Assembly (NCBI RefSeq): GCF_053078305.1
Contig: NZ_CP166879.1
Strand: one strand, 5' to 3'
Length of the DNA stretch: 64,000 nucleotides
This document shows, one piece after another, positions 9,001 through 14,365 of the stretch; position 1 is the stretch's first letter; the number at the start of each line of letters is the position of its first letter. A program made the position numbers.

Positions 9001-12000
9001 AACGGACATTGCCCCGCCTGACATTCCTGAAGGACACGTGGCTATCTTTGATGAGGATGAAAACGCCTGGCACCTCATGGAAGATCACCGGGGTAAAGCC
9101 GTCTGGCGTCTGGAGTCGGGGAGCGCCTTACTGATTACTGAGCCGGGCCCGTTACCGGAAAACGTGACAGAAATAAAACCGGACGGGGAGTTCTGCCGGT
9201 GGGATGGTTCATCATGGGTTAAGGATGAAGCAGCAGAACAGGCTTACCGGGTGAGCGAGGCGGAGAACAAAAAACGGGAATTAATACAGGAAGCAACAAA
9301 TACAATAAACATCCTCCAGGATGCCGTGGATTTAAATATGGCGACCGACGATGAAAGCGCCCTGCTTCCCCTGTGGAAAAAATACCGGGTATTACTGAAC
9401 CGGACAGACACGGGCAACGCGCCGGATATTGTCTGGCCTGAATCCCCTTCGCCGGATCATCACGCAGGCTGACCGGAGGCACCATGACGTGGACAAGAAA
9501 AACAATCAGCGTCAGCGCTGACATGCCCCCGCTGAGCTGTTCCGTCATCCCCGTCACACCGTGGACTTACGGGCTGGGACGATATGAAGAATCGGGGGTA
9601 TATTTAAGCCCTCCGAACGCCATAAACTGGCTGGCCGGGAAAATGGCCGGAAGCCGTGCATCCGGCGACGTGACCATTATCATGATTGCCGAAAACACCC
9701 ACGATCTTTTTATACAGTCAATGGCGGCACTGACCGCCGTTCTGCCCGTGCCGGTATTCACGCAGGCACAGCGCATGGCACAGGCTGCCGCCAGTCTGAG
9801 CACTGACAAAATGCAAATCCCGATCACCACCGACACCCTGCCCGCACCTGTGCATCTTTCCGTTGCCACAATGCGCAGCGCAGTCAGTGCCGCCCGTGCA
9901 GCACAGGCCAGGCAGCTGGCAGCACAACGCCCGGATGCCGCAGGGCTTCGCCGCCAGATAAGCCGCTTTATCAGCAGACGGGCTGGCGCACTTGCCGGAC
10001 TGGAAGACGGGATCAGAACACTGGCAGAACAGAAGGCGCAGGCCTGGGTATTTCAGTACCGGGGGTATCACCGCGCCGCAGCGGCGGCCATGGTGAAGGA
10101 TATCCCGGCACCGACCGCCGTACATACTGTGGCCGCACTCCTGGCGGCAGACTCATTAACCGAACTGGGGAAAATGATCCATGAGCCAGACCGCACTGCT
10201 CGCCCTTGATGGTGAGGGTATTTTCATGCAGAACATGGTGATTTCGCCCTCGATGCAGTTCCAGGAAAAGGACCAGTCCGGTCAGACATCGAGCACCGCG
10301 AACGCCGAGCAGGGCATCAAGGCCAAAGAGCTTCGCGTAACCGGGATGATCACCTTTGACAATGAGCGGGCCCTTCAGCGCATTTTCCAGCTGGCCTCTG
10401 CCACCACCGGGGACGGTGCCCTGAAAGTTTACCGTATCGCAAACGCCACCGCTGCCGCCATTAACTTTCGTGAAGGGACATTTTCCGGGCAGATAGACGC
10501 ACAGCAGCAGACCGACCGCCTCGCCTGGCAGGTCAGCTTCACATTACGCGAAAGACGAAGCGTACCGGAAAAACGCCAGGCACGCGCCGCACCCGGCAGC
10601 AGCCGTAAACAGACGCCGCAGACGCCCGGCGCAAAAGGCGGGACCGTGGCCGACGAAACACCGGAGAAAATGACCTGGTTCGAAGAAAAGGTCCTCAAAC
10701 CCGTCAATGATGCGCTGGAGTAACCATGAACCCCACTAAACGTCTGTTACTGGGTAACGACACCATTCAGCTGGTCAGCTGTTCCGTCATGCTTGAGCTG
10801 AACGCGTGCGGACGCGGATTTATCACGGCCAGAACGGAGCAGAACTACACCGGGCGCCCTGTTCGTCTCGATATCGGATACGGAAACGACCTGGTGCGCT
10901 GGTTTACCGGATACGTTGAACGCAGCCAGCCCGCTGAAAACGGCTCGGTGCGGCTTCTGATTCGTGAAATGGCGGGGATCCTTGATCACCCCTTCCCCTG
11001 TTCATTTCAGCACCCGACAATGCGCACGGTCACACAGTGGCTGAGTGAGACCAGCGGGCTGGAAATCATCCTGCCGGACAACGCGGCTTACACTGACAGA
11101 CCCGTTCCGCATTTCACGCACAGCGGCACGGGCTACGAACTGCTGGCCAGTCTGGGGCGTATTTTCTCCGTACCGGACTACATCTGGCATCCGTTACCGG
11201 ACGGCGGCATTATGGCCGCTGCCGCCGCGCAGGGGATGTTTTCCGGTCGCCCCGTCACCATCCCGCACGAGTTCAGCCAGGCATCAACGGGCGGACACAG
11301 TATGACCCTCCCGATGATTCAGACGCTGCGACCGGGTGTGGAGGTGAACGGTCAGCGCCTGACGATGGTCATGCTGGAAGATGACAACATGACCATCACG
11401 TGGACACCACGCAATAAAGCCACCGGCGCCCCCCTCCAGAAGTCCCCTTTCCGTCGCCAGGCTGAAAAGGCCTTCCCTGAACTGGCATCAGGGCTTCACC
11501 TGCCCAAACTGGCACGTGTTGAGGCGCCGACCGAAGCCGTCAGCGCGGGCAATATTGCCGACCCGTTCAGACCCCGCTACGCGGTGAATCTCCAGCTGCT
11601 TGACGAGAACGGCAACCCGGCAGCGGATACGCCCGTTTATAACGCCGTTCCCCTCCCCGTTCCTATGGCGGGCAGTGAGTCCGGCATGTTCCAGTTCCCG
11701 CCCCCCGGAACCCTGGTGGAAGTGGGATTTGTGGAAGGCCGGGCGGATAAGCCCTTCATCCGCCAGATAATGGCAGAGGGCCACAATCTGCCCGACGTGA
11801 AGCCGGGCGAGCAGTTGCAGCAACAGCGCGACGGCGTATCGCAGCGCGTGACGGTCGCCGGAGACTGGGAGCGCCAGACAGACCAGCGGATACAGGAGAC
11901 ATCACGCGAGCGCGTGGTGAGCGCAGACGAGGAGACGCGGAGCCTGACCAGCCGGGAGACCACCATACAGGCAACCGACACAACCACCGTCCTGGGCGTA

Positions 12001-14365
12001 TCCACGCTTCAGGCTGGCGCAGTCACCCATATCACTGAAGAGAACTACAGCATCAGCACGGGCGGGCACATGATGGTGGTTGCCGGTACCTGTGAGCGCG
12101 ACGTGGAAGGCGACACACTGGACACCGTGGGCGGCAGCCTTACCGAAAAGATTAAGGGCGTCCGTCACAGTATTGCGCAGGCGCAGAAGCTGGTTGGCGA
12201 TACGGTGAAGCTGGGAAACGAGGGCATTAATGTACTGACCATGCTGACGGACCTTGCCGATGTGGTGGAAGAGCTGGCCGATATTACGGCATCACATACC
12301 CACCCCAAAACGGGCACGTCTCCGCAGGCCGCACAGTTCAGCCAGGTCGCTCAGGAGTGCCGCCAGCTTAAAAATAAATATTCACCAATAATCGAATAAT
12401 TATTCACTTTAACAGGCCGCGCAATGTGGCCTTTTTTATTCCCGGACAATAAAAAATATTCATCACCGGACATCACCCACCACGAAAAAACCGTCCGCAG
12501 CAGAAAAAAAGATGGACGAAACGCCCCACGTAATCCCCACGTAAAACGTCGCGTAACGCCACGTAACGAAGAGATAACCCCGCCAGCCCGATTCGATCCC
12601 CTGACATCAGAAAACGATTTCTGCGCCCCAAAATCGCCGCAAATGGCCGGAAATTTTCGGGGGCGACGTAACGCGTAAAGTGACGTAATCGGCGCTACCC
12701 CGCACACGCCTCCGGTATTTGTGTACGATAAATTTTGCAAATCGAAAGGGGTGCAAAACACCCCTCCAGGGCGCGCCATTACTGAGTTTTTCCCTTCTGA
12801 ATGGTTTTGCACTTTGTGCAAGGTTTTGCAAAAGTGTGCAAAAACTCCGGCTTTCTGAGGATCCCGAAAAATTTTAATGCACTGAATAACAAGAGATTTT
12901 TAAAATTACGTCACGATCGAAGATCTGAAAAAGGATCCGACGACGAAAACGAAAAAATCAGGAAAGCCAGAACTGGCGCGGTCTGGCGGGGAGTGGCAGC
13001 AAAAATCACTTTTGCACACTTTTGCACAACTGCTCCGAAAAAGGATGGCGAAGGGGAAGGAAAACAGCCACGTCATCCGTTGCACGTAACGGACGTAAAA
13101 GGTAAATTACGCGCGGGTGCCTTTCGGCTGACGGCTGGAAGGAATACCTGAAGGCCGGATGTGAAAAGGCCCCGAGTCAACTAACGTTAACCCGAGGCCC
13201 TGACACTTCCTACCTGACAAGTGGAAGGTTAGCGCCTCCCTGTAAAAGGAGTCAAGCGCTATGCCGCAAAAAACGATCATAGTGAGCATTTTATGCATAA
13301 CTATTTTGATGATTGTCTGGATGATACACACGTCACCGTGTGAGTTCAGGCTTAACATCATGTGGTCACAATTTGCGGCGTTCTTGCAGTGTAAACAGTA
13401 AGAAACCGCAGCGGGGGTGAAAGCCCCCGCTATCCGGTTGCCGGGTTCGGTCGATATGGCACCTTTTCTCCATTGGATTACAGACGTATTTGCCCGCGAC
13501 ATGCGGGCCTTTTTGTTCAGTTGTATTTATTGTGGTCGTTACTGGCAGTGGCATTAACTGATTTTGCATGAATAGCACAAATTTTTTCCACGATAACACC
13601 ACACGCTTCAAGGTCTTCCGGGCGTGAAACCTTTATTTTTGTAATAGTCTCAGGATTATCAGCCGTTCCACTTTGCACAACCTCAATTTCAATTTTTTTT
13701 CTTGAAAGAATCATTTTCATCGCCCCGACACAGGACAGAGTAAGCCTGTGCGAAAGAATATCACCAGTGCGATAGCGTTGTCTGCTTCAACGCCAGGCAT
13801 TGCGCACACAAAGGGAAATCAGTACATTACACGCGGGTGCCTTTCGGCTGATGGCTGGAAGGATTACCTGAAGGCCGGATGTGGAAAGGCCCCGAGTCAA
13901 CTTTAATGTTAACCCGAGGCCCTGACCATCTACCCTAAGCAAGTGGAAGGTTAGCGCCTCCCTGTAAAAGGAGTCAAGCGCTATGCCGCAAAAAACGATC
14001 ATCGTGAGCATTTTATGCTTAACCATGTTGTTGACCGTCTGGATGATACACCGTTCTCCGTGTGAGTTCAGGCTTAACATCATGTGGTCAGAATTTGCGG
14101 CGTTCTTGCAGTGTAAACCGTAAGAAACCGCAGCGGGGGTGAAAGCCCCCGCTATCCGGTTGCCAAAGGTTCGGTCGAAAGTCGCACCCTCACACAAAAG
14201 TCACAAAGAAAAACAAAGCCCGCAGCGTAAAAACTGCGGGCTTTTTTGTTTCAAAGATGGACGTTATCTGGACACATGAAAATAAAAAATCTTTATTTTC
14301 AATATGTTAACCACCCACTAAAACCACCCGCAGGCGCTTTTTAGATTCAGAAAAATTAGGTATTA

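What the first reader, a model, noticed from the sequence alone, without database searches (positions are those of the whole stretch)
9484..12399. Three ORFs after the fibre-assembly gene, including a 557-aa hub/spike fusion
In the tail gene orders I recall, hub and spike genes precede the baseplate and fibre genes; here they follow them. The 557-aa protein carries gpV-like motifs in its C-terminal half but has a long unassigned N-terminal domain. The 241-aa and 180-aa ORFs have no recognisable motifs; the position after fibre genes is a common place for accessory cargo in prophages.
Basis: inference. Interest (0 to 1): 0.4.

Follow-up and report, generated by a model that had tools for sequence, protein, structure and literature searches.

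The report
Ordinary HP1-type phage baseplate genes
The three genes are the normal last three tail genes of an HP1-type (P2-related) prophage in E. coli: a fused hub-and-spike needle, a small baseplate protein and a conserved partner of unknown fold. They are not added cargo.

Summary
The three ORFs exist exactly as described (9484-10209, 10181-10723, 10726-12399, + strand). They are full-length orthologues of Haemophilus phage HP1 orf33, orf34 and orf35. The gene order tape measure, DUF2590, J, I, fibre, assembly protein, orf33, orf34, orf35 matches five phage genera of the HP1 subgroup of Peduoviridae. It also holds in 79 of 80 related viral contigs.

- **557-aa protein:** a VgrG/Afp8/Pvc8-like fusion. 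A gp27/gpD/Mu gp44-type hub (about residues 1-240) is joined to a gp5/gpV-type spike with an invariant HxH motif near the C-terminus. This fusion was already noted for HP1.
- **180-aa protein:** belongs to Pfam PF25759 (HP1_ORF34, baseplate complex protein). I could not confirm a link to P2 gpU, the tube initiator.
- **241-aa protein:** belongs to PHROG 1677 (unknown function). Its structure model is very confident but matches no solved fold. A homologue was detected in virions at baseplate-like abundance.

The three genes co-evolve with the baseplate core, have phage-core base composition, and end at a terminator. The real accessory genes lie elsewhere: two Hok/Gef toxin genes downstream and a DNA methyltransferase in the lysis cassette. 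The finding is ordinary. The only open point is the role and fold of the orf33 family.

The parts
2557..4743 (+). Tail tape measure protein (HP1 orf27 position)
   Evidence: PF10145 and phrog_28. Syntenic with SI7 gp16 and HP1 orf27.
4719..5090 (+). DUF2590 protein (HP1 orf28 position), the presumed gpW/gp25-type sheath initiator
   Evidence: PF10761, 8e-41. PMC10612066 equates the corresponding ACA1 protein with gpW by HHpred.
5068..6252 (+). Baseplate J/gp47-type wedge protein
   Evidence: PF04865, 8.6e-30.
6245..6793 (+). P2 gpI-type baseplate protein
   Evidence: PF09684 6.6e-7 and phrog_1228 1.5e-82.
6816..8876 (+). Tail fibre
   Evidence: Phage_tail_fib, Phage_fiber_2 and Collar domains.
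8876..9472 (+). Tail fibre assembly protein
   Evidence: Caudo_TAP, 1.7e-38.
9484..10209 (+). HP1 orf33-family protein (241 aa). Conserved tail-module protein, probably a low-copy baseplate component; fold has no solved relative.
   Evidence: phrog_1677, 1e-58. tblastn hits to HP1/HP2 orf33 and K139 orf37. 97 representative clusters. AF2 pLDDT 93.6 with no fold match. ACA1 homologue detected in virions.
10181..10723 (+). HP1 orf34-family 'baseplate complex protein' (180 aa). N-terminal domain of about 125 aa, low-complexity linker, conserved C-terminal WFExKVLKPVNDALG peptide.
   Evidence: PF25759, 3.4e-54, found in 35 of 35 family members. Alignment A3.
10726..12399 (+). HP1 orf35-family fused hub-spike protein (557 aa)
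   Evidence: phrog_2258, 1e-242 over the full length. Foldseek full-length hits to AlgoCIS, Pvc8, Afp8 and VgrG, E down to 3.9e-17.
10726..11445 (+). Hub domain (residues 1-240), gp27/gpD/Mu gp44-like
   Evidence: AF2 pLDDT about 85-92. Foldseek hits to Mu gp44 1wru (2.4e-10), MuSo2 3cdd and the pyocin R2 hub 6u5h_A (6e-6). phrog_196 baseplate hub at residues 25-128.
11653..11760 (+). gp5/gpV-type OB-fold segment (residues 310-345)
   Evidence: PF04717 at 0.0025, below the gathering score. TIGR01646 VgrG at 313-362. Profile hits to VgrG.
11857..12222 (+). Predicted triple beta-helix of the spike (about residues 378-499)
   Evidence: Family profile A1 against the T4 gp5 beta-helix, E 3e-5. AF2 monomer confidence is low here, as expected for an intertwined trimer.
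12295..12303 (+). Invariant H524-T-H526 (HxH) motif, the presumed metal-binding spike apex
   Evidence: H524 and H526 are invariant in 26 sequences. P2 gpV has HTH in ...LHTHKHPG.... The role of HxH is described in PMC12407873.
12414..12432 (+). Terminator-like hairpin with T-run, ending the late tail operon
   Evidence: K139 has an annotated terminator at the same position after orf39.

Best explanation
The three ORFs are the last three genes of the late tail operon of an HP1-subgroup Peduoviridae prophage. The prophage is integrated next to serS in E. coli.

- **ORF35 homologue (557 aa).** It is predicted to trimerise into the central hub and membrane-piercing spike in one polypeptide, as VgrG, Afp8 and Pvc8 do. 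Residues 1-240 form the gp27/gpD-like hub. [quoted passage not shown] The tip probably needs no separate PAAR-type protein because it carries an HxH motif of the kind that binds iron in the P2 gpV apex.
- **ORF34 homologue (180 aa).** It is a baseplate-centre protein. Most likely it sits on the hub and starts tube polymerisation around the tape measure. This is the role of gpU, which holds the same place immediately upstream of the hub gene in P2.
- **ORF33 homologue (241 aa).** It is a conserved, fast-evolving, probably low-copy baseplate component that connects or stabilises the hub region.

What is shown: homology, synteny, co-evolution, and the fold of the hub-spike protein. What is inferred: trimerisation, metal binding, the tube-initiator role of ORF34, and any specific role of ORF33.
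For: - **Family matches.** PF25759 for the 180-aa protein. phrog_2258, phrog_1398 and phrog_1677 each cover the full length of their protein.
- **Synteny.** The order is identical in HP1, K139, SI7 and vB_YenM_324; phi3 has the same layout with two genes un-annotated. 79 of 80 IMG/VR loci have orf33, orf34, orf35 abutting on one strand.
- **Hub-spike fold.** Foldseek aligns the ORF35 model over its full length with AlgoCIS 7aef_q (3.9e-17), Pvc8, Afp8 and VgrG. The hub part alone matches Mu gp44, MuSo2 and the pyocin R2 hub. The family profile hits the T4 gp5 beta-helix and VgrG.
- **Spike tip.** The HxH is invariant. PMC12407873 states that spikes with a C-terminal HxH have an iron-loaded apex and no tip protein. 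No PAAR, gpV, gpD or LysM gene is annotated in the complete SI7 genome.
- **Literature.** PMC10612066 says that in HP1 the gpD and gpV homologues are fused. It also reports the orf33 homologue in ACA1 virions at spectral count per kDa (SC/MW) 0.09, against 0.08 for gpW and 0.06 for gpV.
- **Co-evolution.** Pairwise distances of ORF33, ORF34 and ORF35 correlate with I and J (rho 0.57-0.85), but not with the fibre C-terminus.
- **Operon context.** Core-like G+C content and Shine-Dalgarno motifs. A terminator follows directly.
Against: - ORF34's link to gpU or to tube proteins is not statistically supported. hhalign against a 10-sequence gpU alignment scored 15.3, and 22 of 150 column-shuffled controls reached that score. 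Against the HP1-type tube alignment it scored 20.2, reached by 4 of 150 controls.
- The ACA1 orf34 homologue was not detected in virions.
- ORF33 has no fold or family relative of known function. Its virion detection rests on 2 spectra in a distant relative.
- The spike region of the ORF35 model has low confidence as a monomer.
- No HP1-subgroup baseplate structure turned up in the PDB searches.
Confidence: 0.85

Rival explanations
1. ORF33 (and possibly ORF34) is a morphogenetic factor, such as a chaperone or assembly scaffold for the hub-spike or tape-measure complex. It acts in the cell and is not a stoichiometric virion component.
For: ORF33 evolves faster than the core baseplate proteins: mean pairwise distance 0.46 against 0.25-0.33. 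Only A46 and P208 are invariant. The virion evidence is just 2 spectra, and the orf34 homologue was not detected at all. The model has a long helical hairpin but no recognisable baseplate fold.
Against: The spectral count per kDa for the orf33 homologue equals that of accepted three- to six-copy baseplate proteins (gpW, gpV, gpJ) in the same data set. The gene is translationally coupled within the structural operon.
Confidence: 0.25
2. ORF34 is not a tube initiator. It plays another central role, for example as an adaptor between the tape-measure C-terminus and the hub, or as a plug inside the hub channel. In that case the tube starts directly on the pseudo-hexameric hub, as Hcp does on VgrG.
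For: No significant profile similarity to gpU or to the tube protein. The architecture is a 125-aa domain, a flexible low-complexity linker and a short conserved C-terminal peptide, which looks like a tethered binding peptide. From general knowledge, the T6SS manages without a tube initiator.
Against: Its position immediately upstream of the hub gene mirrors U-D in P2. Published HHpred links the ACA1 homologue to PF06995 (Phage_P2_GpU), flagged as uncertain. The N-terminal alignment to tube proteins is marginal, with 4 of 150 shuffles reaching the score.
Confidence: 0.3
3. The 241-aa and 180-aa ORFs are accessory cargo (a defence, exclusion or toxin module) placed after the fibre genes.
For: Their position is near the prophage end. 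Both PHROG families are labelled 'unknown function'.
Against: They are present in the same order in 79 of 80 related loci and in five phage genera. They co-vary with baseplate genes and have core-like composition. PADLOC finds nothing. The hub-spike gene lies downstream of them in the same coupled operon. Pfam names ORF34 a baseplate complex protein.
Confidence: 0.03

Closest known systems
Haemophilus phage HP1 orf33-orf34-orf35 and their orthologues in the HP1 subgroup of Peduoviridae (K139 orf37-39, Salmonella phage SI7 gp22-24, Yersinia phage vB_YenM_324 gp33-35, Cronobacter phage ESSI-2)
   Same: Same three families, same order, same position at the end of the late operon after the fibre assembly gene, and same overlap or coupling pattern. 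Identity to SI7 is 47%, 73% and 69%; to HP1 it is 27%, 37% and 40%.
   Different: This E. coli prophage belongs to none of the isolated phages: the nearest is only about 47-73% identical at protein level. It also carries its own accessory genes, a methyltransferase in the lysis cassette and Hok/Gef loci downstream.
VgrG (T6SS) and Afp8/Pvc8/AlgoCIS spike proteins, which are single-chain gp27-like hub plus gp5-like spike
   Same: The overall architecture is hub domains, then an OB fold, then a beta-helix in one polypeptide. Foldseek gives full-length alignments with E 4e-17 to 1e-13.
   Different: Sequence identity is only 11-14%. This protein has a C-terminal HxH-containing region instead of a flat beta-helix end capped by a PAAR protein, and no PAAR gene is seen in the module. 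It belongs to a phage tail, not a secretion or injection system.
P2 gpD (hub), gpV (spike with iron-loaded HxH apex) and gpU (tube initiator)
   Same: The functional set and the terminal location of U-D in the tail gene cluster are the same. There is an HxH motif near the spike C-terminus (HTH in both).
   Different: In P2, D and V are separate genes in different operons. There is no significant sequence-profile similarity to P2 D, V or U. ORF35 continues for about 30 residues (a predicted helix) beyond the HxH, whereas gpV ends soon after it. P2 has no orf33 counterpart.
Phage Mu gp44 hub with gp45 spike, and the R-type pyocin hub PA0628
   Same: The hub fold matches: 1wru at 2.4e-10, 9ki1_G at 5e-9 and 6u5h_A at 6e-6.
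   Different: In those systems the hub and spike are separate proteins. No Mu gp43-like (DNA circulation) family match was found for any of the three ORFs.

Membership tests
HP1-subgroup Peduoviridae tail-module terminus (orf33/orf34/orf35) | Full-length homology of each of the three proteins to the HP1-type families | tested here: met
   phrog_1677 at 1e-58, phrog_1398 at 3e-66 with PF25759 at 3.4e-54, and phrog_2258 at 1e-242. tblastn of the 241-aa ORF hits HP1/HP2 orf33 and K139 orf37. Pairwise identities are given.
HP1-subgroup Peduoviridae tail-module terminus (orf33/orf34/orf35) | Conserved gene order TMP-DUF2590-J-I-fibre-tfa-33-34-35 at the end of the late operon | tested here: met
   79 of 80 IMG/VR loci have this order. 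A terminator follows.
VgrG/Afp8/Pvc8-type fused hub-spike | N-terminal gp27/gpD-like hub domains | tested here: met
   AF2 pLDDT is about 85-92 for residues 1-240. Foldseek hits hub proteins and the hub part of VgrG-like proteins.
VgrG/Afp8/Pvc8-type fused hub-spike | gp5-like OB fold followed by a trimeric beta-helix | tested here: inconclusive
   The sequence evidence is positive but weak: PF04717 is below its cut-off, and the family profile hits the gp5 beta-helix at 3e-5 and VgrG at 2.4e-4. The monomer model has low confidence in this region. Trimer geometry was not modelled.
VgrG/Afp8/Pvc8-type fused hub-spike | Homotrimer located at the centre of the baseplate | not testable with these tools
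   Needs a multimer prediction or cryo-EM.
P2 gpV-type spike with iron-loaded apex | [quoted passage not shown] | tested here: met
   H524 and H526 are invariant in 26 sequences. The motif lies 31-33 residues from the C-terminus. The criterion comes from PMC12407873.
P2 gpV-type spike with iron-loaded apex | [quoted passage not shown] | not testable with these tools
   Needs metal analysis or a structure.
Pfam PF25759 HP1_ORF34 baseplate complex protein | Score above the Pfam gathering threshold over the full model | tested here: met
   183.7 bits against a cut-off of 27, covering model positions 3-175 of 180.
P2 gpU tube initiator (PF06995) | Detectable sequence or profile homology to gpU | tested here: inconclusive
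   No Pfam hit in 35 members. hhalign against gpU gave E 0.15, and 22 of 150 shuffles reached the score. Published HHpred reported a match flagged as uncertain.
Mu gp43-type DNA circulation protein | Match to the DNA_circ_N family | tested here: not met
   No such Pfam hit for any of the three ORFs at E up to 0.1.
Known anti-phage defence systems or prophage cargo | Match to a defence-protein model; variable presence among related phages | tested here: not met
   PADLOC gave 0 hits. The genes are present in 79 of 80 related loci.

The most novel reading that the evidence does not exclude
The orf33 family (241 aa here) is a true virion baseplate protein with a fold not yet represented among solved structures, and it is specific to the HP1 subgroup. 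It would supply a function that P2-type phages obtain from other parts, for example gpX/LysM-type hub-associated proteins or a hub-to-wedge connector. The HP1-type baseplate would then be a distinct, structurally unsolved minimal design built around a VgrG-like fused hub-spike with a helical, HxH-bearing tip.
Probability: 0.4. Interest if true: 0.35.

Novelty: new member of a known kind. Interest (0 to 1): 0.15.

Why it matters
It matters little beyond annotation. The three 'hypothetical' genes can be labelled as tail and baseplate genes of an HP1-type prophage, and they should not be pursued as defence or toxin cargo.

Two points have modest value.
- The HP1 subgroup builds its baseplate centre from a VgrG-like single-chain hub-spike plus two small proteins whose roles have not been tested experimentally.
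- One of those proteins, the orf33 family, has a confident predicted fold with no solved relative. No solved structure matched the orf33 or orf34 families in my PDB searches, and ORF35 matched only distant hub and spike proteins. The orf33 and orf34 families are therefore reasonable targets for structural work.

The analysis also exposes misannotations of orf34 homologues in GenBank, as 'adenine glycosylase' and 'nucleoid DNA-binding protein'.

Tried and rejected
- **PDB sequence searches.** Single-sequence searches for all three proteins found nothing significant. Profile searches for ORF33 and ORF34 also found nothing.
- **hhalign against single P2 sequences.** The family profiles gave nothing against P2 gpU, gpD or gpV.
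- **Building a gpU profile.** The search for related loci with P2 gpU returned only near-identical copies, which were useless for a profile. I then collected 10 diverse gpU sequences. hhalign against ORF34 stayed non-significant, and column-shuffle controls confirmed this. ORF34 against the HP1-type tube alignment was marginal only.
- **Unusual long or fused ORF33 hits.** P0221 and P0164 turned out to be uninformative or gene-calling artefacts.
- **Papers.** The original HP1 and K139 genome papers are not held. There is no paper on vB_YenM_324. Several keyword searches were unproductive.
- **Rfam.** A scan of 12300-14500 found no family at gathering score.
- **Cargo or defence reading.** Rejected on conservation, co-evolution, composition and the absence of PADLOC hits.
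Full report
**Observation.** The window has three + strand ORFs at exactly the reported coordinates: 9484-10209 (241 aa), 10181-10723 (180 aa) and 10726-12399 (557 aa). Each start codon is preceded by a Shine-Dalgarno-like motif. The first two ORFs overlap by 29 nt and the third starts 2 nt after the second ends, which is the usual picture of translational coupling. They follow a Caudo_TAP tail-fibre assembly gene (8876-9472). Upstream lie a fibre, a P2-I-type protein, a baseplate J protein, a DUF2590 protein and a tape measure protein.

**Context.** The window is E. coli chromosome. The 2.9-kb stretch occurs at 98.8% identity or more in 11 of 5426 complete genomes. In one of these genomes the annotated neighbourhood reads: sheath (DUF2586), tube, holin, DNA methyltransferase, M15 endolysin, chaperone, tape measure, DUF2590, J, tail protein, fibre, assembly protein, hypothetical, 'baseplate complex protein', hypothetical. 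Three Hok/Gef genes follow in that strain, then serS, rarA, lolA and ftsK. The three ORFs therefore lie at the right end of a prophage inserted beside serS.

**Relatives and gene order.**
- The nearest isolated phages are Salmonella phage SI7 (Irrigatiovirus), Cronobacter phage ESSI-2 and Yersinia phage vB_YenM_324. All are about 30-kb Peduoviridae.
- The 241-aa protein also hits orf33 of Haemophilus phages HP1 and HP2, orf37 of Vibrio phage K139, and homologues in Pasteurella and Pseudomonas phages.
- In SI7, HP1, vB_YenM_324 and K139 the annotated order is tape measure, DUF2590, J, I, fibre, assembly protein, then three genes of the same sizes as here. Phi3 has the same layout with two of the genes un-annotated.
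- Protein identities to SI7 are 47%, 73% and 69% for the three ORFs. To HP1 they are 27%, 37% and 40%. This is in line with the rest of the module.
- Among 80 IMG/VR loci retrieved with the 557-aa family, 79 carry orf33, orf34 and orf35 homologues on one strand, in that order and abutting. The one exception has umuD/umuC in place of orf33 and orf34.
- The 'unusual' order is therefore the standard order of the HP1 subgroup. Even in P2 the U and D genes lie after H and G, at the end of the tail cluster next to attP.

**The 557-aa protein.**
- It matches phrog_2258 ('baseplate protein') end to end at 1e-242. Residues 242-556 match phrog_4011 (315 aa), which looks like the spike-only form found where hub and spike are separate genes.
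- More than 1100 homologues were found. All 120 listed are about 536-575 aa long and cover 97-100% of the query.
- The AlphaFold2 model is confident for residues 1-240 (pLDDT about 85-92). It is poor for about 350-490, as expected for a monomer model of an intertwined trimer.
- Foldseek aligns the model over its full length with single-chain hub-spike proteins: AlgoCIS 7aef_q (3.9e-17), Pvc8, Afp8 and several VgrGs. The N-terminal part alone matches hub-only proteins: Mu gp44, MuSo2 43-kDa protein, the P1, E217 and Pa193 hubs, and the pyocin R2 hub.
- A profile of the family hits the T4 gp5 beta-helix (3e-5) and VgrG (2.4e-4) in the PDB sequence set. Pfam Phage_base_V and TIGR VgrG models hit residues 310-362 below their thresholds.
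- H524 and H526 are invariant. P2 gpV has HTH in the same relative place. According to PMC12407873, spikes with an HxH near the C-terminus carry an iron-loaded apex and need no separate tip protein. Consistent with that, no PAAR gene is annotated in the complete SI7 genome.
- In the model the HxH sits in the loop between two confident helices (503-523 and 535-556). This would be a different tip geometry from gpV. It rests on a monomer model only.
- The fusion is not new. [quoted passage not shown] PMC4122934 notes that GPD and baseV domains occur either fused or split across phage-tail-like systems.

**The 180-aa protein.**
- It belongs to Pfam PF25759, 'Bacteriophage HP1 ORF34 baseplate complex protein' (183.7 bits, cut-off 27), as do all 35 aligned relatives.
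- The alignment shows a conserved domain of about 125 residues with an invariant DxSGQxSxT loop, a low-complexity linker, and a conserved C-terminal WFExKVLKPVNDALG peptide.
- By position it corresponds to P2 gpU, which lies immediately upstream of the hub gene. PMC4122934 lists gpU as the tube initiator equivalent to T4 gp48/gp54.
- Published HHpred linked the ACA1 homologue to the gpU Pfam family but flagged the link as uncertain.
- I could not confirm the link. hhalign against P2 gpU alone found nothing. Against a 10-sequence gpU alignment it scored 15.3, a value reached by 22 of 150 column-shuffled controls. Against the HP1-type tube proteins it scored 20.2, reached by 4 of 150.
- The tube-initiator role is therefore an inference from position and from the need for such a part.

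**The 241-aa protein.**
- It belongs to phrog_1677 (unknown function) and has no Pfam family, in any of 63 members.
- An exhaustive search of 1.84 billion representative proteins found 97 clusters, mostly 220-310 aa. Some, including HP1 and K139, carry an N-terminal insertion of about 55 residues.
- Only A46 and P208 are invariant, which argues against an enzyme.
- The AlphaFold2 model is very confident (pLDDT 93.6, pTM 0.81). It shows an alpha/beta domain built from N- and C-terminal strands plus a long helical hairpin.
- In ACA1 virions the orf33 homologue was detected by mass spectrometry with 2 spectra. Its spectral count per kDa (SC/MW) was 0.09, close to gpW (0.08), gpJ (0.05) and gpV (0.06).

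**Core or cargo.**
- Across 59 loci, pairwise distances of ORF33 correlate with I, J, ORF34 and ORF35 (rho 0.57-0.70). They do not correlate with the fibre C-terminus (rho 0.02). ORF34 and ORF35 correlate with the core at 0.72-0.85.
- ORF33 evolves faster than the others: mean distance 0.46 against 0.25-0.33.
- By contrast, the window's fibre C-terminus and assembly protein find relatives in only 20 and 68 of the 80 loci, with partial coverage.
- G+C content is 0.59-0.60 in the three ORFs, like the tape measure gene. It is 0.46 in the ORF downstream.
- PADLOC has no match.
- A terminator-like hairpin at 12414-12432 closes the operon, as annotated after K139 orf39.
- The accessory genes are elsewhere. 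Two Hok/Gef genes lie at 13261-13401 and 13983-14123, in a segment that only 6 genomes share in full. A DNA methyltransferase sits between holin and endolysin, where SI7, HP1 and vB_YenM_324 have none.

**Mechanism.**
- Shown by homology and fold: ORF35 is the hub and spike of the contractile tail.
- Inferred: it trimerises and nucleates the baseplate. The J, I and DUF2590 proteins assemble around it. ORF34 sits on the hub and starts tube growth along the tape measure. ORF33 is a low-copy stabiliser or connector in the same region.
- On sheath contraction the tube drives the HxH-tipped spike through the outer membrane. In P2 the spike protein ends up in the periplasm.

**Verdict.** This is a correct observation of an ordinary feature. 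The cargo interpretation is not supported. The prophage is a new member of a known kind. The only open question is what the orf33 family, and to a lesser extent orf34, does in the HP1-type baseplate, for which my PDB searches found no close solved relative.

Noticed in passing
window 519-1271 (+): An N6/N4 DNA methyltransferase gene (PF01555) sits between the holin (224-529) and the M15 endolysin (1271-1609). SI7, HP1 and vB_YenM_324 have holin and endolysin adjacent, so this looks like an accessory gene inserted in the lysis cassette.
   Followed up: partly
window 12440-14350: After the operon terminator the G+C content drops. Two Hok/Gef-family ORFs (13261-13401 and 13983-14123, +) lie in a direct repeat of about 720 bp. 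The whole segment is shared at 80% coverage or more by only 6 of 5426 E. coli genomes, so it travels with the prophage, while hok-like pieces occur in about 1000 genomes. Rfam found no Sok or hok RNA at gathering score. serS follows at 14363-15655 (-).
   Followed up: partly
L114 1-7000 (IMG/VR UViG_2834113715_000003): This is the one locus of 80 that lacks orf33 and orf34 homologues. It has umuD-like (Peptidase_S24) and umuC-like (IMS) genes immediately upstream of the orf35 homologue, so it is probably a rearranged or defective element.
   Followed up: partly
L003 12792-13337; L005 11371-11910 and 10470-12593: orf34 homologues are annotated as 'adenine glycosylase' (vB_YenM_324 gp34) and 'nucleoid DNA-binding protein' (phi3 gp33), which are likely misannotations. 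In phi3 the orf33 homologue is not annotated, and only the spike part is called, as a 323-aa 'Gp5 domain' protein. That leaves an un-annotated gap of about 680 nt where a separate hub gene may lie.
   Followed up: no
L007 9327-11393 (E. coli strain Bongo): In this otherwise 99.7% identical prophage the tail-fibre gene is annotated as two pseudogene fragments. In the window the fibre ORF (6816-8876) is intact.
   Followed up: no
window 50001-54000: A low-G+C island (about 0.40, against about 0.50-0.55 in the surroundings) appears in the composition profile. I did not examine it.
   Followed up: no
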